DNA of 64,000 nucleotides. Origin: Thermodesulfobacteriota bacterium (GTDB lineage Bacteria > Desulfobacterota_D > UBA1144 > Nemesobacterales > Mycalebacteriaceae). Positions 2,541 through 43,679 of this stretch are shown piece after piece. The notes beneath the pieces were generated by a model. That model did no database searches, was not told where the DNA came from, and saw only the letters and a list, made by a program, of their open reading frames with translations. The translations under genes and the position numbers were made by a program. The stretch is from assembly GCA_965205855.1 (NCBI GenBank), contig OZ242184.1:224001-288000 (forward strand), written 5' to 3'. Within the stretch, counting starts at the first letter, position 1. The number at the start of each line of letters is the position of its first letter.

Positions 2541-3041
2541 ATGCACGAACATCATTTTACTCAAAACTCCGGCTTGCCGAAAATTGAGTCCGCCGGGGGG
2601 CTGATTGTCAATTCTTCGGGTTGCGTTCTTTTCATTCTCAAAGGCGGAAAGTGGGACCTGCCAAAGGGGCGGCTGGAGCAGGGGAAAAACCATGAGGAAA
2701 CCGCTTTGCGCGAAGTTGTTGAAGAGACATCCATTGAACCGGATTTGATAACAGTCTTCACCCCTTTGTGCCACACCTGGCATGTTACATCCTATTTTTC
2801 AAAAGAGTATATAAAAAAAACCACATGGTTTGTTATGGAATACCGGGGAGACGGAGACAGGTTGCGCCCTCAGGTTGAGGAGGGGATAACGGAATGCCGC
2901 TGGATTCATCCGCATGATTTCAGGGATTACCGTTTGGAAATGCGGCCGCGTATAGGATATGTCACAATGCTGTGGAAGAAGGTTTTCTTTGAAAGAGGGT
3001 CGCATAAAATTTTAATCGGAGCGCCGAGCGCGGCGATTTGA
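2541..3041 (+). CDS. NUDIX hydrolase (Ap4A/MutT1-like)
   Basis: KWDLPKGRLEQGKNHEETALREVVEETS Nudix box; AAGGAG RBS. Confidence 0.88.
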   Translation: MHEHHFTQNSGLPKIESAGGLIVNSSGCVLFILKGGKWDLPKGRLEQGKNHEETALREVVEETSIEPDLITVFTPLCHTWHVTSYFSKEYIKKTTWFVMEYRGDGDRLRPQVEEGITECRWIHPHDFRDYRLEMRPRIGYVTMLWKKVFFERGSHKILIGAPSAAI

Positions 3042-35190: not shown

Positions 35191-36135
35191 TTATCTTTTC
35201 CCTGTCTCAAGGCACGTCTTTATCGTTCGCGCGAGGTTTTCCATCATTTCAAAATACAGTCCGGTTCCGGGCTCGATGCCGACTCCGATGGGGTCAAGAG
35301 GAACGATTTTTGCATCCGTTCCCTCAACTGCAGCCAGCACAAGTTTGTCTTTAAACTGCGGCTCGCTGAAAACGCAACCGGCTCTGGATTTGCGTATTCT
35401 TGCCCTGATTTCTTTGAGAGTCCGCGCCGACTGAGACATTGCGGGACTTGTGGTTATTGAGCCTACGATGTTCAGTCCGTAGTCGCGCTCAAAATAACCG
35501 TAGGCATCATGGAAAACGGCCAGGGGAGCGTTTTCCATTCCCGCAAATTCCCGTTCGAATTTTTCGTCAAGAGTTCTCAGTTTTTTTATGGTATTACGCG
35601 CATTTGTGTTGTAGGCGTTTTTGTTTTGCGGACTGATTTGGGACATCTGTTTTGTTACGTTTCTTACAATTTTCTCCGCATTTCTGAGTGAAAGCCAGAT
35701 ATGCAGATTGTACTTTCCGTGGTCGTGTTCGTCCGATTCCCAGCTTCCGCCCCGTCTTGATTTCTCAAGACGGATGCCCGAACCGGACGCGACGGAGAAT
35801 TTGCGGATTTTCTCCGGAAGCAAGCGCAGAGCGCCTGTGATAAAAGACTCAAAATTCTCGTCTATGTAGAACACGGCCTTTGCGCCGTACATCTCTTTTA
35901 TATGAGACGGTCTCAGGTCGAAATCATGAGGCGATTTGTTCGCCGGAACAATTAAAACCGTTTTATCGACGCCTTGCGTTACTCCCGCGACAAGTGAATG
36001 TAGCGGCGCTATGGTTACGGCAATCGCACCGGACTGCCGTGCGTATGCTTTATATGTAAGAATTGCTGTGAAAAACCCAATCGCAATCGGGACAATTAAA
36101 ATTCCAAGGATTGTTTTTATCCTGTTGTCTGTCAT
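35191..36135 (-). CDS. znuA: Zinc ABC transporter substrate-binding protein
   Basis: TIAPLHSLV, SPHDFDLRPS, HDHGKYNLHIWL, VFHDAYGYFE, CVFSEPQF, LDPIG. Confidence 0.92.
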   Translation of the reverse strand: MTDNRIKTILGILIVPIAIGFFTAILTYKAYARQSGAIAVTIAPLHSLVAGVTQGVDKTVLIVPANKSPHDFDLRPSHIKEMYGAKAVFYIDENFESFITGALRLLPEKIRKFSVASGSGIRLEKSRRGGSWESDEHDHGKYNLHIWLSLRNAEKIVRNVTKQMSQISPQNKNAYNTNARNTIKKLRTLDEKFEREFAGMENAPLAVFHDAYGYFERDYGLNIVGSITTSPAMSQSARTLKEIRARIRKSRAGCVFSEPQFKDKLVLAAVEGTDAKIVPLDPIGVGIEPGTGLYFEMMENLARTIKTCLETGKR

Positions 36136-36141
36136 AATGTA

Positions 36142-36158
36142 ATGTTATAATATAACAT
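36142..36158. promoter_or_regulatory. Zur box
   Basis: Perfect ATGTTATA-a-TATAACAT palindrome matching the proteobacterial Zur consensus, between divergent znuA and zur. Confidence 0.85.
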
Positions 36159-36187
36159 AAATGGGAGTCAAATCCTCAATTTTGAAT

Positions 36188-36640
36188 ATGAAAAACAGCA
36201 AAGACCGCGGCGGATGCGTTAACAAGACTATTATCATTGTAAAGAAAATATGCGCCGAAAGGGGAATTCGTCTTACGCCCTCAAGAATGCGCGTTATGGA
36301 TATGATTTTGCGTAGTCGCCAGCCGGTAAAGGCGTATGCCATATTGAAGTCTTTTTCCGACTCTTCCGCGCCGCCGACTGTTTACCGGGCTCTGAATTTT
36401 CTAATAGAGAACGGGTTTGTCCACAAAATCGCGAGCTCCTCTTCGTATGTCGCGTGTATTCATCCCGAAAGCCGGCATCCGGAGTGTTTTTTTCTCCTAT
36501 GTTCGGTTTGTGGTAACACAAAGGAATTTTGCGGCGGACTGTCCAAAACCATTGTGGAGGCGATTGGACACGAAGGTTTCGGCAAGGAAAAAATTGTTCT
36601 GGAAGTGCATGGAGTCTGCGCCGGATGCGGCGGAGTTTAG
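36188..36640 (+). CDS. zur: Zinc uptake regulator (Fur family)
   Basis: RLTPSR, KAYAIL, PPTVYRALNFL, VHKI, CSVC and CAGC. Confidence 0.9.
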   Translation: MKNSKDRGGCVNKTIIIVKKICAERGIRLTPSRMRVMDMILRSRQPVKAYAILKSFSDSSAPPTVYRALNFLIENGFVHKIASSSSYVACIHPESRHPECFFLLCSVCGNTKEFCGGLSKTIVEAIGHEGFGKEKIVLEVHGVCAGCGGV

Positions 36641-36642
36641 AT

Positions 36643-37395
36643 ATGGAAACACTTTTAAAAACACACCGTGTTTGTTTTGCGCGGCACGGGGTTGAGATAC
36701 TACGGGATATTTCACTTGAGGTGAAAAAGGGGGACTTCTTGTCCGTTGTGGGTCCCAACGGCGCCGGAAAGACAACGCTGTTAAAAATTCTCACCGGTAT
36801 CTTGCGGCCCGATTCCGGTTCGTGCGAACGCGGTTCGGGGTTGAAGATTGGCTATATGCCTCAGAGGCTTGAAGGAGACGGGGTTATGCCCATTTCGGCG
36901 AAGCGGTTTATAAGCCTTTGCTACGATAAAAACGGGACGGATTTTGATTCGGTCTGCCGGGAGACTGGTGTTTCCAGTGTTCTGGACAGGCCGCTTTACA
37001 ATCTTTCCGGAGGAGAGATGCAGCGCGTCATGCTTGCAAGGGCGCTTATGAACAATCCCGACCTTCTTGTGCTGGATGAGCCCGCCCAGAACCTTGATGT
37101 TTCGGGACAGTTGCATTTTTACAAAGCGCTTCAGGAAATTCACCTCAGGCGCGGTATCGCCATCCTGATGGTTTCCCATGACCTTCACATGGTTATGTCT
37201 TCCACAAAAACGGTTATCTGTCTTTATGTTCATGTCTGTTGCGCGGGCAAGCCGACAACGGTCGTGAAAGATCCTGAATTTATCGCCATCTTAGGCGAGG
37301 AAATGGCGCGACTGATGTCCGTTTATCCTCATTCCCATGACCATGAGCACGCCGGTTCCCATACCGAACCCGCCGTGCGGGAGAACAATGCCTGA
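36643..37395 (+). CDS. znuC: Zinc ABC transporter ATPase
   Basis: GPNGAGKT, LSGGEMQR, LDEP, VSHDLHMVM, HVCC, His-rich tail. Confidence 0.93.
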   Translation: METLLKTHRVCFARHGVEILRDISLEVKKGDFLSVVGPNGAGKTTLLKILTGILRPDSGSCERGSGLKIGYMPQRLEGDGVMPISAKRFISLCYDKNGTDFDSVCRETGVSSVLDRPLYNLSGGEMQRVMLARALMNNPDLLVLDEPAQNLDVSGQLHFYKALQEIHLRRGIAILMVSHDLHMVMSSTKTVICLYVHVCCAGKPTTVVKDPEFIAILGEEMARLMSVYPHSHDHEHAGSHTEPAVRENNA

Positions 37396-38209
37396 ACCTT
37401 TCATACTTCGCGCCTTGGTTGCGGGGGTCGGTGTTGCCATTGTCGCGGGGCTGCTTGGATGTTTTGTAATATGGAGGCGGATGGCTTATTTCGGCGACTC
37501 GCTTGCCCATGCCGCGCTTGCGGGTATTCCTCTCGGTATTCTTATGAAGATAGGAGAAGACTACGGGATTTTATTGGTTGCATCGGTTTTTTCCATTCTG
37601 CTTTTATACATCGGCGGCCACAGTCGTCTTTCCTCGGACGTGGTGCTGGGTATAATCGCGCACTCAACCCTCGCAATCGGAATAGTGGCGGTTTCTCTGA
37701 TCGATTTTTCGGTTTTCAACTTACATTCGGTTCTTTTCGGCGATATTTTAACTGTGGGCACTGCTGACATAGCGCGGATATACATCTGTGCGGCTGTTGT
37801 GATTGTCGTACTGGTATTGAAATGGGATTCTTTCCTGCTTGCTACAATCAACAGGGATTTGGCAAATGCCGAAGGCATCAACACATTCGGGATTAACCTG
37901 CTTCTTGTTTTTCTTATGGCGTTTGTTGTTTCAGTGTCTTTTCAGGTGGTTGGCGTTTTACTTATAACATCGGCCCTGATCATTCCGGCGGCGGCGGCGC
38001 GTATGATTGCCCGTTCGCCAGAATCAATGGCGGTTTTCTCCTGTGCCGTCGGCATGGTGTCCGTTATTGCGGGAATCTATCTTTCCCTTAATTTTGACAC
38101 TCCGTCGGGGCCTTCAATTATTTTGGCGTCAACCGCGCTTTTTGTTTTGTTTTTCACAGCTTCAATACTTTTTGAAAAAGTCTTTCGTAAAAAAAGAAAC
38201 ATTTTTTAA
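37388..38209 (+). CDS. znuB: Zinc ABC transporter permease
   Basis: WRRMAYFGDSLAHAAL, LFGDIL, DTPSGPSII. Confidence 0.93.
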   Translation: MPEPFILRALVAGVGVAIVAGLLGCFVIWRRMAYFGDSLAHAALAGIPLGILMKIGEDYGILLVASVFSILLLYIGGHSRLSSDVVLGIIAHSTLAIGIVAVSLIDFSVFNLHSVLFGDILTVGTADIARIYICAAVVIVVLVLKWDSFLLATINRDLANAEGINTFGINLLLVFLMAFVVSVSFQVVGVLLITSALIIPAAAARMIARSPESMAVFSCAVGMVSVIAGIYLSLNFDTPSGPSIILASTALFVLFFTASILFEKVFRKKRNIF

Positions 38210-38320: not shown

Positions 38321-38701
38321 TCAAATGAAGTATCCGACAAGAAACGCGAAAAAGAACCCAACAAGATACAATGCGACTGAAAACACCACAATCACAAGAC
38401 TAAATCTCCGCAGACGCATGCACATCCGCGCCGCCTCCGGCTCTGCGGGGCAGGGAGCGTTCCTCTGCGCATAACGTCCCCAAGCCGCGATTGCGAGCAT
38501 TATTCCCGCGACTGCGAAAACCCATGCCTTATGCTCCGAAAGCCACACAAGTTGCGGAAACGCGCTCACAAGCCCCGCCGTTACTGCTCCGAGACCAATG
38601 CTCACAAGCAGCGCGGGCAGAGCGCAGCAGACAAGAGTTCCCGCCGATGTAAAAAGTGAAAAAAACGGCAAGGTTGCGTCCTTCCAGCCGAAATTTTTCA
38701 T
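38321..38701 (-). CDS. MerT/MerC-like small metal-transport membrane protein
   Basis: TLVCCALPALLVSIGLGA (intramembrane CC), loop CP..C, 3-4 TM. Confidence 0.72.
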   Translation of the reverse strand: MKNFGWKDATLPFFSLFTSAGTLVCCALPALLVSIGLGAVTAGLVSAFPQLVWLSEHKAWVFAVAGIMLAIAAWGRYAQRNAPCPAEPEAARMCMRLRRFSLVIVVFSVALYLVGFFFAFLVGYFI

Positions 38702-39090
38702 TCTGCGTCTCCCGTTCTGTAGCGCGATATGGACACAACTTCATAGCCGGAATCGTTTATCAATTTCCTGATTTTTCCGTCTGGCAGATTTCCCCCCTTT
38801 TTGAGATAAACCGTAACAAATCCGCGCCTGAGATTGACATCCGTTTCCTCAACCACGTCGGTTTTGAGAAAAACCTTGTATATGGAGCGGGCGCAGAAAT
38901 CGCACACAAGCCCGTTGACACGGATGTGAACAATCTCTCCCGCAAGTATGGGTTCTCCCGCCTTTTCAGTGCGCGCGGGTGGCCTGTGGTCGTGTTCTCC
39001 GTATCTGTCATGACCCGCGTTTGCATTTCCGAACGCGATAAAAGCCGCAACCGTAAATATTAAAATTGCTGTTGTTAATTTCATTTTCAT
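38698..39090 (-). CDS. Periplasmic heavy-metal-associated (HMA/MerP-like) protein
   Basis: Signal peptide (ANA|G), His-rich linker GHDRYGEHDH, VNGLVCDFCA, DSGY; GGAGG RBS. Confidence 0.85.
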   Translation of the reverse strand: MKMKLTTAILIFTVAAFIAFGNANAGHDRYGEHDHRPPARTEKAGEPILAGEIVHIRVNGLVCDFCARSIYKVFLKTDVVEETDVNLRRGFVTVYLKKGGNLPDGKIRKLINDSGYEVVSISRYRTGDAE

Positions 39091-39102: not shown

Positions 39103-39747
39103 TTAAAACCGCCGGATAAAGTTTAGTAGAAAATTCCCCTTGCTTCCGTATCCGACCTCAAGAAGCGACGCGCCCTTGAAAAAGCGCACAAGCGGGGTTA
39201 TTTCCGTCTTGTTTGCACAATTCGCCGTTGGGCAATAAGTAATTTCCGTCATAATCCAGGTATGCAGAGAGCCGTAATCCGCCACATACGGAGCGATTCC
39301 AACTCTCCCCGACTGCCAGAACCGCTTGTCAAACCTTCCCAAACTCCGGGCGCGATTCTCATAGCGGACAAAAAACCTTCTGTTTTCCCAGTCCGCGGAT
39401 ATTCCCGCAAACACCGCGGGAGACAAATCGCCGTTTTTCAACGCCCCGCCGGCTGCGAGTTTGAGATACAAGTTTGCCTGCGAATGGCTCCGGTTGAGTC
39501 GTTTCAGCAGGGAGTTGAGCTGAAAAACCAGTCCTATGGTGTCACGTCCGCGCGCGTGAAATCCCCTCAGCCCGACCGAATGCCGCGCCGAGGGCGAATA
39601 ATGCAGATGAACAGATGTGTTCATCGCGTTATGCATCTGCATTACGGTCCACCCGCCCTTATGGGAAACGGGTCTCCCCCACGCGCCGTGAATCTGAGGC
39701 AGAAAAGCCGCCAATGTGAAAGCGCAAGCTACGCAAAGTTTTTTCAT
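39103..39747 (-). CDS. Exported hypothetical protein, probable outer-membrane beta-barrel
   Basis: Signal peptide, alternating amphipathic strands, terminal Phe (LLNFIRRF), Met/His near N-terminus. Confidence 0.6.
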   Translation of the reverse strand: MKKLCVACAFTLAAFLPQIHGAWGRPVSHKGGWTVMQMHNAMNTSVHLHYSPSARHSVGLRGFHARGRDTIGLVFQLNSLLKRLNRSHSQANLYLKLAAGGALKNGDLSPAVFAGISADWENRRFFVRYENRARSLGRFDKRFWQSGRVGIAPYVADYGSLHTWIMTEITYCPTANCANKTEITPLVRFFKGASLLEVGYGSKGNFLLNFIRRF

Positions 39748-39749
39748 TT

Positions 39750-39819
39750 TTCCTCCGCTTTGAGTTTTGAGTCTGGTGACAAAGCCGTCGTTTAACGACT
39801 TTGAAGTGAAAGCGGGGAA
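39750..39819 (-). promoter_or_regulatory. SD-sequestering intergenic hairpin
   Basis: mRNA UUCCCCGCUUU immediately after the leader stop pairs with AAAGCGGAGGAA (contains the SD); inner stems CAAAG/CUUUG and GUCG/CGAC. Confidence 0.6.
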
Positions 39820-40194
39820 TTAAACAAGGATGCGAAGGGTCAGCAGATAGATATGCAGTTCCGCCTGCCGGACGGCGCGGGACGGCAAAATCTTTTTCCG
39901 GTTTGCCACTCCGTTGAAAGCCGCCGGAAATTCCGTCCGCGCAAAGAGGACAGAGAGTTTTGAGCCGGCGCTTTCTTTTTTCACAACCGTCTGTTGAAAA
40001 TCAAGACAGTCTCCAAAAGCCGAGTGTTCGCAGTTTTCGTCCGGACTGTGGTCGGGGCAAACCCTTTTGTTTTCTGAATGGGATGCGTGAACCGCCGCGC
40101 TGTCCTGTTCCAGCATTGGACACGGGGCGGAGTTTGCCGCGGAGACGGCAAAGCCGAAAATTAAAACAAAAAATACAACGGCAACACGCAACAT
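39820..40194 (-). CDS. Secreted Cys/His-rich protein, putative metal-sensing leader
   Basis: Signal MLRVAVVFFVLIFGFAVSAANSA, CPM..H..H..CPDH..CEH..DC, hydrophobic C-terminus LHIYLLTLRILV. Confidence 0.6.
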   Translation of the reverse strand: MLRVAVVFFVLIFGFAVSAANSAPCPMLEQDSAAVHASHSENKRVCPDHSPDENCEHSAFGDCLDFQQTVVKKESAGSKLSVLFARTEFPAAFNGVANRKKILPSRAVRQAELHIYLLTLRILV

Positions 40195-40254
40195 AACGAA
40201 AGAAAACTATAGTTGAATCGGCGGACTGTCAAACCGCATTTGAGAGTTTGGAAG

Positions 40255-40321
<67 letters not shown>

Positions 40322-40331
<10 letters not shown>

Positions 40332-41122
40332 GGGTTTTCTTTCAATTCCGCCACTACCATTTTCATATCGTCCCAGAGAGGGCGTTTGTATTTTTCAAAC
40401 CTCAAAAGGGCGGCGGGGTGGTATGTTACCGCAAGTTTTATCCCTCCGTAGTTGTGAAACACGCCGCGTAAAGAACCGAGCGAAGGATTTTGAAGTTTCA
40501 AAAGCGCCTTTGCCGCCACAAGCCCCAGACACACTATAACCCGCGGAGAAACGGATTTTATCTGATTTACCAGAAACGGCTCGCATTCCGCCGCCTCATC
40601 CGCCTCGGGGTTCCGGTTTTCGGGCGGTCTGCATTTCACAACATTGCAGATATACACGTCTTCGCGTTTCATTCCCATCGCCTCTATTATCTTGTCCAGA
40701 AGTTTTCCGCCTCTTCCCACAAAAGGCCTTCCCTGCTCATCCTCGTCCCTACCCGGGCCTTCTCCGACAAAAACAAGCTCGGCTTTCGGGTTTCCTTCGC
40801 CGAAAACAATCGTTCTTCTTCCGGAATGAAGTTTGCATCTTTCGCAGTCGCCGAGTTCCTTTCTTATCTCTTCAAGACTTTTTTCGCCGCCGGATTCAAA
40901 AAGGTCTGAAAACTGGCTGACCGTAACGGCTGGGTTCGTCTTTTCCGTCTGCGGTATTTTTTGAGCAGCGGCTTCCTTTTGCTTCCCAGCCGCTTTGGCA
41001 CGCACGGGGGTTTGTGCGGTTTCTTTTTCAATCATAATTTTTCCGTTTCCCACACGCGCCTGAAATTCCAGATAGGCTTTTAGCTCGTTTATTACCGCTT
41101 TTACTTCGTCGTTTCCGTTCAT
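40322..41122 (-). CDS. Uracil-DNA glycosylase family 4
   Basis: CERCKL, VFGEG, VGEGPG..ED..GRPFVG, NVVKCRPP.NR.P, TYHPAALLR; ATG 41122. Confidence 0.93.
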
Positions 41123-41210
41123 CCGCCGCACGGCTTTGTATTTGAAAGCCAACTTCCTGTTGTCTACAATATACATTCCAACAAGACGGTAATGAAGGTT
41201 GCCGCCGTAA

Positions 41211-43679
41211 ATGTCCATAATGGAAAAAATCTACAATCCCCAAGCGGTTGAGAAAAAGTGGCGGAAGATATGGGAGAAAAACGGCTCCCGCAGTCGCGGC
41301 GCGGATTGCGCAAAACCCGGATTCTATGTTCTGGAGATGTTTCCATATCCGTCCGGACGCATACACATGGGGCATGTCCGCAACTATACGATAGGGGATG
41401 TGATAGCCCGTTACAAAAGAGCGTCCGGTTTTGAAGTTCTTCACCCGATTGGCTGGGACTCTTTCGGGCTGCCCGCGGAAAACGCTGCGATACAAAAGGG
41501 TGTTCATCCCGCTGAATGGACAAAAACAAACATCGATCAGATGCGAACCCAGCTGAGAAGTCTCGGTTTTTCATATGACTGGGCAAGGGAAATCTCAACC
41601 AGTGACCCGTCATACTACAAGTGGGAGCAGTGGCTTTTTACCAGAATGTTTGAAAAAGGTCTCGCCTATCGCAAAAAAACTTTTGTGAACTGGGACCCCG
41701 AAGATAAAACCGTGCTTGCCAACGAGCAGGTCATAGATGGAAAGGGCTGGCGTTCCGGCGCGCCCGTAGAGCGCAGGGAGATAGATCAGTGGTTTCTGCG
41801 CATAAGCGACTACGCGGACGAGCTTCTGGACGGGTTGGAAAAACTTGACGGCTGGCCCGATTCGGTCAAAACCATGCAGTCAAACTGGATAGGGCGTTCC
41901 GAAGGCGTTGAGATGGAGTTTTACTCGGACGACCTTGAAGCTCCGATAACAATTTTCACCACCAGACCCGACACTGTTATGGGTGTCTCCTGTCTTGCCG
42001 TTGCTCCCGAACATCCGGCCTCTTTGAAAGCCGCGCAAACGGACGGAAAAGTGGCGAATTTTATCAAAGAGGCAAAGACGTTTGCGGTTTCCGAAGCCGA
42101 AATTGAAACTGCCCTGAAAAAAGGGGTTCCGCTTGGAATTTCCGCCGCGCATCCGGTTTCGGGCGAAAAAATACCGGTTTGGACCGCAAATTTTGTTCTG
42201 ATGAGCTACGGGTTCGGGGCGGTAATGTCCGTTCCCGCTCATGACAAACGCGATTTTGACTTTGCAAAAAAATACCGGTTGCCCGTAAAACAGGTGGTTT
42301 TTCCCCAAAGCGGGGATTTAGATACAGATTCCGGTGCCTACACCGGAAAAGGGGTTTTGAAAAATTCCGGACAGTTTGACGGGTTGTCTTCGGAAGAGGC
42401 GTTTTCCAAGGTGGCGGATTTTCTCAAACGGAGCAAAAAAGGCGGACGCGTTATCAACTACCGTTTGCGCGACTGGGGAATATCACGCCAACGCTACTGG
42501 GGGGCGCCGATTCCCGTAATTTACTGTTGCGAATGCGGAGCCGTTCCGGTTCCCGACGGGGATTTGCCCGTTACACTGCCCGCAGATGTGAATTTCGAGG
42601 GAGATGACATACCGTCCCTTGCGTCAATAGAGAGTTTTGTTTCCACGGTGTGTCCGCGTTGCGGCGCAAAGGCCCGCAGGGAAACCGACACAATGGACAC
42701 CTTTATGGAGTCTTCATGGTATTTTCTCAGATACGCCTCGCCGGATTTTAAACAGGGGATTTTTGATCCCGATGCCGTAAAAAAATGGCTTCCCGTGAAC
42801 CAGTATATAGGCGGAGTGGAGCATGCTATTCTGCACCTGCTTTATTCAAGATTTTTTGTCCGCGCTCTCAGGGATTTGGGGCTTTGTGATTTTGACGAGC
42901 CCTTTGGCGCGCTGCTTACGCAGGGAATGGTTATCAAGGATGGGGCAAAGATGTCAAAATCTCTCGGCAACACGGTTGACCCCGATGCGATGATAGAGAA
43001 ATACGGCGCGGACTCAGTGCGGCTTTTCATACTTTTTGCGGCTCCGGCGGAAAAGTTTCTGGACTGGAACGAAAAGGGCATTGAGGGGATGAGCAGGTTT
43101 CTGAAAAGGCTGTGGAATGTGGCCGTTGAGATTTCGGAAAATTACGCCGGAGAACTTTCCGATAAAAATTCTGACTCTTATATTTCCACTATTGTGGAAA
43201 GTGAAAAACTTGAAATTGAAATAAACAAGACAATAAAGAAAGTGACCGATGATATCGAGCGGTTTCATTTCAACACCGCGATTGCCGCGCTTATGGAGTT
43301 TCTCAACCGGTTTCCAAAAAAGGTGGATGGCAATATGTCATTTTTCCTGAAGGGTTTTGTCGAAAAAATTGCAGTGCTTCTTTCGCCGATAGCTCCCCAT
43401 TTTGCCGAAGAGATTTGGGAAATTCTCGGCAATAAAAAATCCGTGTTTCTTGAGCCGTGGCCAGAATGGGACAAATCCCGCGTTAAAAGTGAAACTGTTA
43501 CGGTTGTTTTTCAAGTTAACGGAAAAGTTAGGGCGCAAATGGAAATGCCCGCAGGCTCAACCGAAGACGAGATAATACAAACCGCTTTTGCAAATGAGTG
43601 CGTGAAGAATTTTACCGGTGGAAAGAAAATAAAAAAAACCGTTGTTGTGCCGGACAAACTTGTAAATATTGTTGTTTAA
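41211..43679 (+). CDS. leuS: Leucine-tRNA ligase
   Basis: [38 protein letters not shown]. Confidence 0.97.

What the first reader, a model, noticed from the sequence alone, without database searches (positions are those of the whole stretch)
39745..40194. Metal-sensing leader protein plus SD-sequestering hairpin: possible new translational switch
Seen: the first 11 nt after the leader stop (UUCCCCGCUUU, 39819-39809) pair with AAAGCGGAGGAA (39761-39750, one bulged A), which holds the SD of the barrel gene, and enclose a second stem. The leader has a signal peptide, a Cys/His cluster, a spacer of about 45 aa and the tail LHIYLLTLRILV. Known: DUF2946 leaders (Bordetella CruR, Caulobacter CutF) control Cu-uptake genes by ribosome stalling at a C-terminal RAPP-type motif. 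This leader has no RAPP. Inference: a ribosome dwelling at the stop opens the SD, and metal-bound folding during export releases it and shuts the operon, using a different arrest sequence.
Basis: partly seen in the sequence, partly recalled or inferred. Interest (0 to 1): 0.8.

Follow-up and report, generated by a model that had tools for sequence, protein, structure and literature searches.

The report
Metal-sensing leader peptide with hairpin switch
A small exported, cysteine-rich leader gene sits in front of a metal-handling operon, and the RNA right after its stop codon folds back onto the next gene's ribosome-binding site; this is a known kind of copper switch, but here the leader ends in an unusual conserved tail without the usual prolines.

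Summary
On the minus strand a 124-aa leader ORF (40194..39820) is followed by a 72-nt spacer. Its first 11 nt pair with the Shine-Dalgarno region of a 214-aa outer-membrane barrel gene and enclose a second hairpin (-23.5 kcal/mol, z -4.3, 0 of 200 shuffles). The same design, with changes on both sides of pairs, is present in all 7 spacers that follow this kind of leader: 6 from one genus and 1 from an Omnitrophota MAG.

The barrel-HMA-MerT-like module is widespread. Of 80 related loci, 52 have an upstream Cys-rich leader ending in a PP motif (CutF/CruR-like), 6 have a CsoR-like repressor gene, and 17 have neither. The window's leader belongs to a rare class: only 9 proteins in 1.84 billion representatives. 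It lacks PP and ends about 17-20 residues later in a tail conserved at the peptide level, [IV][FY]L[LI]Tx[HR]I[LA][VI]-stop.

My reading: this is a CutF-type leader plus SD-shielding stem-loop, opened by a ribosome at the leader's stop. The tail may be a proline-free pause signal. Arrest, metal response and its direction are untested.

This scan had already noted the module on other DNA (e1-1456727). I class it as a new variant of a known kind.

The parts
40206..40232 (-). Promoter-like element: TTGACA, 15-nt spacer, TATAGT. The -10 hexamer ends 11 nt before the leader ATG, and no Shine-Dalgarno lies between them.
   Evidence: Read by eye. The consensus scan accepts only 16-18 nt spacers and did not list it. 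Similar -35/-10 pairs lie 6-11 nt upstream of the leader ATG in G003, G005, G002 and G004. This is inference, not a mapped start.
39820..40194 (-). Leader ORF, 124 aa including the stop codon: hydrophobic N-terminus, Cys/His cluster, variable spacer, conserved tail.
   Evidence: ORF; homologues in 4 of 5 other genomes of the genus, and in 5 of 101 genomes of the order counting the window's own; alignments; no Pfam or NCBIfam family.
40129..40194 (-). Putative Sec-type signal peptide, residues 1-22 (MLR, 14 hydrophobic residues, SAA).
   Evidence: By inspection of the translation and the alignment. No signal-peptide predictor was available.
40006..40125 (-). Cys/His cluster, residues 24-63: PCPM, HxxH, CPDH, C-x7-C.
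   Evidence: P24, C25, P26, M27, C55 and C63 are invariant in the 6 genus-type leaders.
39823..39852 (-). Conserved C-terminal tail IYLLTLRILV, residues 115-124. Class consensus: [IV][FY]L[LI]Tx[HR]I[LA][VI]-stop.
   Evidence: Leu at -8 uses 3 codons and Thr at -6 uses 2 codons for one residue each, so the constraint is on the peptide.
39809..39819 (-). Anti-SD arm (5' arm of the outer stem). It starts at the first nucleotide after the stop codon.
   Evidence: 11 bp, -15.4 kcal/mol as a duplex.
39780..39803 (-). Inner hairpin: 10 bp including 2 G-U pairs, with a 4-nt loop.
   Evidence: A GC-rich inner hairpin lies at the same place in the other genus spacers.
39750..39761 (-). 3' arm of the outer stem, holding the barrel gene's Shine-Dalgarno (GGAGG).
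   Evidence: probability 0.80 that the SD is paired with the first 18 nt after the stop.
39103..39747 (-). Outer-membrane 12-stranded beta-barrel gene, 214 aa, ending in ...FIRRF.
   Evidence: no Pfam family. AF2 pLDDT 89.7 with 12 strands. Foldseek matches to KdgM, NanC, FapF and the intimin beta-domain; 88 relatives found, of which 80 loci were kept.
38698..39090 (-). Exported heavy-metal-associated (HMA) protein, 130 aa, with a CDFC motif.
   Evidence: PF00403 at E 6.1e-4, 20.6 bits, below the 24.8 cut-off. CopZ-type NCBIfam models at E 1.4e-7, below their cut-offs. The L015 orthologue passes Pfam at 34.8 bits.
38321..38701 (-). Small membrane protein with a CC motif in its first hydrophobic segment; only distantly MerT-like.
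   Evidence: the NF033556 MerTP_fusion model scores E 2.1e-4, 20.9 bits against a cut-off of 180. The gene follows the HMA gene in all 9 loci I listed.

Best explanation
The 124-aa ORF is a regulatory leader of the CutF/CruR kind. It is an exported, Cys/His-rich nascent chain encoded in cis in front of a metal-handling operon: a 12-stranded outer-membrane barrel, a periplasmic HMA protein and a small MerT-like membrane protein.

The barrel gene's Shine-Dalgarno is locked in a long-range stem with the 11 nt that directly follow the leader's stop codon. Only a ribosome on the last codons or at the stop of the leader can melt that stem, so barrel translation depends on leader translation and on how long the ribosome dwells there.

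Shown here: the stem, its conservation and covariation, its fixed place right after the stop, the positional equivalence with PP-type leaders, and the peptide-level conservation of the tail.

Inferred: the proline-free tail ([IV][FY]L[LI]Tx[HR]I[LA][VI]-stop) slows termination, and metal binding or disulfide formation in the Cys/His cluster tunes that dwell time as in CutF. The last Cys lies 60-65 residues from the C-terminus, so the cluster would be outside the translocon when the stop is reached.

My odds: the stem is functional and leader-dependent, 0.8. The leader is a sensor rather than a structural subunit, 0.7. The tail acts as a pause or arrest signal, 0.35. If the switch is regulated, copper is the likeliest metal, and induction by metal is somewhat likelier than repression.
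For: (1) Fold: -23.5 kcal/mol, z -4.34, 0 of 200 shuffles fold as well.

(2) All 7 spacers that follow this leader class have a stop-proximal:SD duplex of 7-12 bp, at -7.8 to -19.5 kcal/mol. Six of 7 have p_shuffle <= 0.005, and the arm starts 1-3 nt after the stop.

(3) The probability that the SD is paired with the first 18 nt after the stop is 0.80, 0.41, 1.0, 0.80, 1.0, 1.0 and 1.0.

(4) Covariation on a model-fitted alignment: score 0.292 against 0.179 +/- 0.033 in shuffles (1 of 500 as high) and 0.08-0.20 in slid controls. Four of 11 outer-stem pairs and 3 of 5 inner pairs change on both sides.

(5) Of 80 loci holding a relative of the barrel, 52 have an upstream Cys-rich ORF with PP in its last 15 residues, 3 have this PP-less class, 6 have a CsoR-like gene, 17 have neither and 2 have too little DNA. 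The leader position is therefore a regulatory slot.

(6) The genus genome without the leader (G001 = L008) keeps barrel, HMA and MerT-like genes. Its spacer has no significant structure (z -0.95, 31 of 200 shuffles as good).

(7) Tail: synonymous codon variation with conserved residues. Leaders are 28-35% identical overall, against 56-61% for the barrels.

(8) Ruler: in 48 non-redundant PP leaders the last Cys lies 40-47 residues (once 34) from the second P, and 2 or 4 residues follow the PP. In the PP-less class the last Cys lies 60-68 residues from the C-terminus in 8 of 9 proteins.

(9) Precedent: the cutF stem-loop shields the cutO SD, needs cutF translation in cis, and is bypassed by an anti-SD mutation (PMC9973294 section 5). 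Arrest peptides that stall with the stop codon in the A site are known (passages of PMC10987492).
Against: - No experiment or expression data: no RNA run is listed for this DNA.
- Nothing shows that the tail stalls ribosomes. In CutF and CruR the prolines are essential, and they are missing here.
- Any ribosome that finishes the leader opens the stem, so plain unregulated coupling explains the RNA equally well.
- The six genus spacers are one clade, so the independent DNA examples are two at most: the genus and L034.
- G003's outer stem is weak (-7.8 kcal/mol, p 0.175).
- Homology to PP leaders rests on position and shared motifs. The profile-profile comparison is weak (probability 60.8%, E 8.2e-5, 25 columns covering only the signal peptide and the CPM motif).
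- The leader is not in Pfam DUF2946.
- The genus barrels do not nest within the PP-type Dadabacteria clade, so I cannot say that the PP-less leader derives from those.
- About 10 of 49 PP-type loci also shield their SD with stop-proximal RNA, so the stem is not special to the PP-less tail.
Confidence: 0.55

Rival explanations
1. Plain translational coupling. The 124-aa product is a real secreted small metal-binding protein, a fourth working part of the system. The stem only ties barrel synthesis to its synthesis. The tail works in the mature protein, for example by docking to a partner or as a degradation tag.
For: Any terminating ribosome would open the stem (geometry). The tail is conserved as a peptide, which a mature function would also explain. 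No PP arrest motif is present.
Against: The module exists without the leader in one genome of the same genus. Among 80 loci, 17 have no such ORF and 6 have a CsoR-like gene in its place. The spacer between the Cys cluster and the tail varies in sequence but keeps its length. The leader evolves far faster than the barrel. CutF, the studied analogue, is degraded after export and acts only in cis (PMC9973294 sections 5 and 8).
Confidence: 0.22
2. Sign-inverted switch. The arrest point is still the ancestral P/PP position, 17-21 codons before the stop. A ribosome held there is too far from the stem to melt it and blocks followers, so stalling shuts the barrel gene and release opens it. The C-terminal extension exists to move the stop and the anti-SD away from the arrest site.
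For: The two Omnitrophota-type leaders keep PP at 46 and 51 residues from the last Cys, near or just above the 40-47 (once 34) seen in 48 PP leaders, and then carry exactly 17 more residues. In the joint alignment the PP column lines up with a nearly invariant single P of the genus leaders.
Against: The genus leaders have one P, not PP or RAPP, at that column. In CruR and CutF the prolines are needed (PMC9426467 section 9; PMC9973294). This model does not explain why the last 10 residues are conserved. No alternative pairing of the tail-coding RNA with the anti-SD was found (p 0.18-0.83).
Confidence: 0.1
3. Control at the level of transcription, as for CruR. Ribosome position on the leader decides whether Rho, or the inner GC hairpin acting as a weak terminator, ends the transcript before the barrel gene.
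For: CruR works this way (abstract of PMC9426467). The inner hairpin is GC-rich and is followed by UUUG in most genus spacers (sequences).
Against: The terminator scan lists no site in the spacer on the minus strand; its only minus-strand site, 39443..39429, lies inside the barrel gene. The U run is only 3 long. The 72-nt spacer is short next to the 162 nt of cruR-bfrG (passage of PMC9973294). This model leaves the SD-anti-SD covariation unexplained.
Confidence: 0.08
4. The hairpin and the tail are chance features without function.
For: None beyond the small number of independent lineages.
Against: z -4.34 with 0 of 200 shuffles as good. The design recurs in 7 of 7 spacers with changes on both sides of pairs. 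The tail is kept across 28-35% identical proteins.
Confidence: 0.03

Closest known systems
CutF of Rhodobacter capsulatus (cutFOG operon; Ozturk et al. 2023, PMC9973294; bioRxiv 10.1101/2025.02.05.636593)
   Same: Both are small ORFs under 150 aa with an export signal and four Cys in the mature part. Both are encoded in cis directly upstream of a metal gene. Both have a short spacer whose stem-loop shields the downstream Shine-Dalgarno, which is opened by the ribosome at the end of the leader.
   Different: CutF stalls at a C-terminal PPP motif with EF-P involved, and it controls a multicopper oxidase. The window's leader has no PP. It ends 17-20 residues beyond the PP-equivalent position in a hydrophobic conserved tail, and it heads a barrel-HMA-MerT-like operon. 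It would have been excluded from that paper's CutF-like list, which required PP in the last 15 residues (section 10). That paper does name PP-less relatives (CzcI and CzcI2), so a PP-less leader as such is in print. I found no Pfam or NCBIfam match that would make this leader a CzcI.
CruR (Bp2923) of Bordetella pertussis, Pfam DUF2946 (Roy et al. 2022, PMC9426467)
   Same: Both are upstream ORFs with an export signal and a Cys motif. Both keep a fixed spacing between the Cys motif and the C-terminal motif: 45 residues in CruR; here 40-47 in the PP-type leaders of this barrel family and 41 to the aligned P in the window's leader. Both head a metal-transport operon that includes an outer-membrane protein.
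   Different: CruR has CXXC and RAPP three residues from the C-terminus, and it acts through Rho-dependent termination over a 162-nt spacer. Copper relieves its arrest and shuts expression. The window's leader has neither CXXC nor RAPP and does not match PF11162. Its spacer is an SD-sequestering stem.
[quoted passage not shown] 2024, PMC10987492, passages read)
   Same: Conserved residues lie directly before the stop codon of an exported upstream ORF. The ribosome is held with the stop in the A site. A downstream SD-sequestering stem is opened.
   Different: Those motifs end in P or K and sit upstream of sec genes. The tail here is hydrophobic (…ILV-stop), and its stalling is not shown.
Classical translational coupling by SD unmasking (recalled textbook knowledge, from no call)
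   Same: The downstream SD is buried in a stem with RNA at the end of the upstream ORF and is opened by the upstream ribosome.
   Different: Ordinary coupling needs no conserved C-terminal peptide, no export signal and no fixed spacing between a Cys cluster and the stop.

Membership tests
CutF-like proteins (rule-based definition of Ozturk et al. 2023, section 10) | Shorter than 150 aa | tested here: met
   124 aa.
CutF-like proteins (rule-based definition of Ozturk et al. 2023, section 10) | N-terminal signal peptide | tested here: inconclusive
   MLR followed by 14 hydrophobic residues and SAA, seen. No predictor was run.
CutF-like proteins (rule-based definition of Ozturk et al. 2023, section 10) | [quoted passage not shown] | tested here: not met
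   None of the 9 proteins of this class has PP in its last 15 residues. The two Omnitrophota-type proteins have PP followed by 17 more residues.
CutF-like proteins (rule-based definition of Ozturk et al. 2023, section 10) | [quoted passage not shown] | tested here: met
   72 nt to the barrel gene.
CutF-type switch (function) | Stem-loop that shields the downstream Shine-Dalgarno and lies within reach of the ribosome at the end of the leader | tested here: met
CutF-type switch (function) | Metal-dependent ribosome stalling of the nascent leader during export | not testable with these tools
   Needs toeprinting, pulse labelling or reporters.
Pfam DUF2946 (PF11162) | hmmscan score at or above the gathering score of 23.7 bits | tested here: not met
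   The window leader has no hit at E <= 1. Of 10 related leaders scanned at E <= 10, one PP-type leader (L015) reached 13.8 bits, E 0.099.
CruR type | [quoted passage not shown] | tested here: not met
   There is no CXXC (the nearest is C-x7-C) and no RAPP. The feature is taken from PMC9426467 section 9.
Termination-stage arrest peptides | Conserved residues immediately before the stop codon | tested here: met
   (L117, T119 and I122 are invariant in the 6 genus-type leaders).
Termination-stage arrest peptides | Peptidyl-tRNA accumulates with the stop codon in the A site | not testable with these tools
   Needs in vitro translation and toeprinting.
HMA domain (PF00403), 130-aa protein | Score at or above the gathering score of 24.8 bits, with a CxxC metal site | tested here: inconclusive
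   The window protein scores 20.6 bits, E 6.1e-4, and has a CDFC motif. The L015 orthologue scores 34.8 bits.
MerT / MerTP (NF033556), 126-aa protein | Score at or above the curated cut-off of 180 bits | tested here: not met
   20.9 bits, E 2.1e-4. The likeness is limited to a CC pair in the first membrane segment.
12-stranded outer-membrane barrels (KdgM/NanC-like fold) | Confident 12-strand barrel model that matches solved 12-strand barrels | tested here: met
   pLDDT 89.7 with 12 strands. Foldseek E 2e-4 to 1e-3, TM-score up to 0.63 on the target, sequence identity 7-13%. This shows the fold only, not family membership.

The most novel reading that the evidence does not exclude
The tail [IV][FY]L[LI]Tx[HR]I[LA][VI]-stop, with its Omnitrophota counterpart PLY[IL]K[NY]SVLRI-stop, is a new proline-independent arrest peptide. 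It holds the ribosome on the stop codon, and its hold is set across the membrane by the metal or redox state of the exported Cys/His cluster. On this reading it is a second, independently evolved answer to the problem that CutF and CruR solve with prolines, found in two distant lineages together with a stop-adjacent anti-SD.
Probability: 0.3. Interest if true: 0.8.

Novelty: new variant of a known kind. Interest (0 to 1): 0.6.

Why it matters
Switches in which a nascent exported chain senses a metal are known from two studied cases, CutF and CruR, and both depend on prolines.

A natural relative has dropped the prolines. It keeps the export signal, the Cys cluster, a fixed spacing and the SD-shielding stem, and it has gained a conserved tail that ends at the stop codon. 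Two outcomes are possible:

- The tail is a new arrest sequence. That would be useful for understanding how force or folding on the far side of the membrane is read out at the peptidyl-transferase centre.
- The stalling element can be lost while coupling is kept.

Either outcome is testable with simple reporters.

The survey also gives a clean comparative set. Of 80 loci carrying one module, 52 are headed by a PP leader, 3 by a PP-less leader, 6 by a CsoR-like gene and 17 by nothing. This suggests that the leader slot is regulatory and interchangeable with a transcription factor.

Tried and rejected
- **Family scans of the leader.** Pfam and NCBIfam gave no family.
- **Word-indexed protein search.** With the leader alone it found only itself. 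With alignment A5 it found 5 proteins, all already in hand.
- **Metagenome scan.** Using the genus alignment it found 1 locus, at the same coordinates as L002 (after one search failed for lack of a conserved stretch).
- **Genome-collection scans for P0009 and P0008.** No encoding locus turned up, so these two have no DNA to test.
- **Covariance model of the spacer.** Searched over 54 sources (375,611 bases), it hit only its 7 training sequences plus one weak antisense hit.
- **Rfam.** It found only the tRNA.
- **RNA evidence.** No RNA holder is listed for this DNA, and I did not lay reads.
- **Complex prediction, barrel with leader.** No answer, score 0.01. This is not evidence either way.
- **ESM Atlas.** It returned only unnamed clusters and gave no lead.
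- **Loss of EF-P as the reason for dropping PP.** Rejected: efp is present in the window's genome and in 4 of 5 genus relatives.
- **Three-part attenuator, with tail-coding RNA competing for the anti-SD.** Rejected: those duplexes are no better than shuffles (p 0.18-0.83).
- **Descent of the PP-less leader from the PP leaders of other Dadabacteria.** Not supported by the barrel tree.
- **Literature on the module.** 'MerT-like' with 'copper' found 0 papers. 'MerT' with 'CsoR', matched at word start, gave 713 papers, and the 10 listed were irrelevant. 'CutF' with 'MerT' as whole words gave 7 papers, none on this module by title or abstract.
Full report
**1. What is there**

All of this lies on the minus strand. 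The gene order is:

- a uracil-DNA glycosylase family gene (41218..40322; Pfam UDG)
- tRNA-Arg(CCG) at 40331..40255
- a 124-aa ORF at 40194..39820
- a 72-nt spacer
- a 214-aa ORF at 39747..39103
- a 130-aa ORF at 39090..38698
- a 126-aa ORF at 38701..38321

The 124-aa product has no Pfam or NCBIfam family at E <= 1. The 214-aa product has none either.

Its AlphaFold2 model, built on a 38-row alignment, is confident (mean pLDDT 89.7) and has 12 strands. Foldseek's best PDB matches are 12-stranded outer-membrane barrels: intimin beta-domain 4e1s, FapF 5o68, KdgM 4pr7 and NanC 2wjq, at E 2e-4 to 1e-3 and 7-13% identity.

The 130-aa protein is an exported HMA-like protein with a CDFC motif. It scores PF00403 at E 6.1e-4, below the cut-off, but an orthologue passes. 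The 126-aa protein resembles MerT only weakly: 20.9 bits against a cut-off of 180.

On the other side lie znuA and a Fur-family gene (Pfam), followed by two ORFs (36529..37395 and 37337..38209). I read these as znuC and znuB from their translations only; I did not scan them.

**2. The observation**

The spacer folds into the outer stem UUCCCCGCUUU / AAAGCGG-A-GGAA around a 10-bp inner hairpin. It folds at -23.5 kcal/mol, z -4.34, and 0 of 200 shuffles fold as well. With flanks added the helix extends over the last leader codons and the barrel AUG.

**3. Relatives within the genus**

The window's genome is a single 1.40-Mb contig.

- The leader has homologues in 4 of 5 other genomes of its genus and in none of 35 more distant genomes searched.
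- A profile search finds it in 5 of 101 genomes of the order, which is 1 of 26 genera.
- The leaders are 28-35% identical to the window's, while the barrels are 56-61% identical.
- Two islands of the leader are conserved: the Cys/His cluster (P24, C25, P26, M27, C55 and C63 are invariant) and the last ten residues (L117, T119 and I122 are invariant).
- The tail consensus is [IV][FY]L[LI]Tx[HR]I[LA][VI]-stop.
- Tail codons vary synonymously: three Leu codons at -8, two Thr codons at -6, and 53 synonymous against 61 mostly conservative non-synonymous pairwise codon differences. The constraint is therefore on the peptide, not the RNA.
- One genome (G005) carries a second, decayed copy of the locus that still has a leader with this tail.

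**4. The stem is conserved**

Seven spacers follow this leader class: five genus loci, the decayed copy, and L034 from an Omnitrophota MAG. All seven show the same design.

- The RNA starting 1-3 nt after the stop pairs with the barrel's SD region.
- The duplexes are 11, 7, 7, 12, 10, 11 and 9 bp, at -15.4, -7.8, -13.6, -18.2, -18.1, -19.5 and -11.2 kcal/mol.
- Six of 7 have p <= 0.005 against shuffled spacers.
- The ensemble probability that the SD pairs with the first 18 nt after the stop is 0.80, 0.41, 1.0, 0.80, 1.0, 1.0 and 1.0.

I also counted pairs on an alignment fitted to a covariance model. That alignment still has one-base register errors in the arms, so it undercounts.

- 66.1% of cells pair, against 58.5 +/- 2.3 in shuffles (1 of 500 as high).
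- The covariation score is 0.292, against 0.179 +/- 0.033 in shuffles (1 of 500) and 0.08-0.20 for slid partners.
- Four of 11 outer-stem pairs and 3 of 5 inner pairs change on both sides. One example is CCGC/GCGG in G002 against CCUC/GAGG in G004.

The six genus spacers are close kin, so these numbers overstate independence. L034 is the only clearly separate DNA example.

**5. The wider family shows what the leader is**

A pattern scan of one genome per species with the barrel alignment found 88 relatives and kept 80 loci. They come from Dadabacteria/Thermodesulfobacteriota, Alpha- and Gammaproteobacteria, Bdellovibrionota and others. In the 9 loci I listed, the barrel is followed by an HMA gene, and in 8 of the 9 by the small CC-motif membrane gene; L034 has none among its listed ORFs.

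The gene directly upstream falls into these classes:

| Upstream element | Loci (of 80) |
|---|---|
| 110-140-aa ORF with a hydrophobic N-terminus, three or more Cys, and PP in the last 15 residues (endings such as RPPKHLS, PPPPRA, GPPPKIFS) | 52 |
| PP-less class (two are genus genomes already counted, plus L034) | 3 |
| 91-104-aa CsoR-family gene (PF02583, E 3.1e-27 for L052) | 6 |
| No such ORF | 17 |
| Too little upstream DNA | 2 |

The slot before the barrel is thus usually filled by a CutF/CruR-like leader, sometimes by a metal-sensing repressor, and sometimes by nothing.

The genus genome G001 (L008) has lost the leader. There the barrel starts 47 nt after the tRNA, and that spacer has no significant fold (z -0.95).

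These facts favour a regulatory role over a structural one.

**6. A ruler**

In 48 non-redundant PP leaders the last Cys lies 40-47 residues (once 34) before the second P, and exactly 2 or 4 residues follow the PP. This matches the fixed 45-residue CXXC-RAPP spacing reported for CruR (PMC9426467 section 9).

In the PP-less class the last Cys lies 60-65 residues from the C-terminus in the five intact genus leaders and L034. It lies 60 and 68 residues away in two further proteins known only as sequences. The decayed copy is the exception at 29.

L034 and P0009 still have PP, at 46 and 51 residues from the last Cys, followed by exactly 17 more residues that end in PLY[IL]K[NY]SVLRI. In a joint alignment the PP column lines up with a single, nearly invariant P of the genus leaders.

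The simplest description is a PP-type leader that has lost or weakened its PP and carries a C-terminal extension of about 17-20 residues, with a new conserved end.

The class is rare. A profile search of 1.84 billion representative proteins found 9 at E <= 0.001: 7 genus-type and 2 Omnitrophota-type.

**7. Homology caveats**

- The leader is not a Pfam DUF2946 member.
- The profile-profile match to PP-type Dadabacteria leaders is weak: probability 60.8%, 25 columns.
- On a quick barrel tree, the six genus barrels form one well-supported clade on a long branch. That clade is not inside the PP-type Dadabacteria clade, and L034 lies elsewhere.
- I therefore cannot say from which leaders the PP-less ones derive, or whether the two PP-less groups share an origin.

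**8. Mechanism**

The published CutF system has the same parts: an exported Cys-bearing leader that is needed in cis, and a stem-loop that shields the next gene's SD and is bypassed by an anti-SD mutation (PMC9973294 section 5). In the current model, copper keeps the nascent chain from forming disulfides. The ribosome then stays stalled at PPP, its helicase melts the stem, and CutO is made (discussion of the 2025 preprint).

Here the anti-SD begins at the first to third base after the stop. By recalled knowledge of the ribosome's footprint (from no call), it is inside or at the entrance of the mRNA channel only while the ribosome is on the last codons or the stop.

Shown: leader-end-dependent unmasking is the only evident way to free this SD.

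Inferred:

- The conserved tail lengthens the stay at the stop. Arrest peptides that act with the stop codon in the A site exist (NSP-stop, NAP-stop, DGMK-stop; passages of PMC10987492).
- The Cys/His cluster tunes that stay. It would have just cleared the translocon when the stop is reached.

Direction and metal are open. CsoR-headed versions of the module hint at copper and at induction, but the CsoR link to Cu(I) is recalled and not tested here.

**9. Rivals**

Plain coupling with a real secreted protein, a sign-inverted switch that still uses the internal P/PP site, transcription-level control, and chance are weighed in their own section.

About 10 of 49 PP-type loci also shield their SD with stop-proximal RNA, while the PP-type Dadabacteria do not (probability <= 0.19). 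The stem is therefore a recurrent feature of this leader family, not a peculiarity of the PP-less tail.

**10. Comparison and novelty**

The device works like CutF. By the published rule-based definition it fails one defining feature, PP in the last 15 residues. It also fails the Pfam DUF2946 threshold.

The CutF paper itself notes PP-less relatives (CzcI and CzcI2) whose mode of action is unknown, so a PP-less leader as such is not new. I confirmed the module's conservation independently.

What is new here, as far as my searches go, is the conserved proline-free C-terminal extension tied to a stop-adjacent anti-SD in two distant lineages. The supplementary files of both key papers were closed.

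I rate it a new variant of a known kind, interest 0.6.

Noticed in passing
window 40195-40232 (minus strand); L002, L003, L004, L005 upstream of the leader ATG: In all five genus loci a -35/-10-like pair lies so that the -10 ends 6-11 nt before the leader's ATG (in the window: TTGACA, 15 nt, TATAGT, then 11 nt). No Shine-Dalgarno lies between them. The leader may be translated from a leaderless or nearly leaderless mRNA (by eye).
   Followed up: partly
L003:36-1193 (genome G005): A second, decayed copy of the locus lies just upstream of the intact one. Its leader paralogue has lost most of the Cys cluster but keeps the tail (IFLLTGHLLI-stop) and a 12-bp stop-proximal:SD stem (-18.2 kcal/mol). 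It is followed by an ORF that begins like the barrel and ends like the HMA protein, so it looks like a deletion fusion.
   Followed up: partly
L008:2876-3010 (genome G001): This genus genome has no leader. The barrel gene (TTG start) lies 47 nt after tRNA-Arg(CCG), and the spacer has no significant structure. Leader and hairpin are lost together.
   Followed up: yes
L052, L060, L069, L077, L080, L083, just upstream of position 3001: In six Hyphomonadaceae-like loci a CsoR-family repressor gene (PF02583) takes the place of the leader, directly upstream of the barrel or overlapping its start. A protein sensor has apparently been swapped for the leader-peptide sensor.
   Followed up: partly
48 PP-type leaders in L011-L085: The PP leaders of this barrel family have a strict ruler. 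The last Cys lies 40-47 residues (once 34) before the second P, and exactly 2 or 4 residues lie between the PP and the stop, never 3.
   Followed up: partly
L015, L017, L020, L035, L036, L038, L047, L048, L064, L065, L075, spacers of 38-42 nt: In Hyphomonadaceae the PP leader's stop is followed at once by a small hairpin of the form UCCUU...AAGGA, and the barrel SD is AGGA. The UCCU after the stop could therefore pair either with the hairpin's own arm or with the SD, which would be a possible two-state mini-switch (sequences; SD-pairing probabilities 0.00-0.99).
   Followed up: no
window 35191-38209: A zinc-uptake set lies next to the operon and ends convergently with it. znuA (minus strand) and a Fur-family gene are supported by Pfam. 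The ORFs 36529..37395 and 37337..38209 on the plus strand are read as znuC and znuB from their translations only. I did not check whether this neighbourhood is kept in relatives.
   Followed up: no
barrel tree: The six genus barrels form one clade on a long branch (0.69). They group weakly (support 89) with leaderless Micavibrio/alphaproteobacterial barrels rather than with the 15 other Dadabacteria/Thermodesulfobacteriota barrels, which hints that the module was acquired separately.
   Followed up: no
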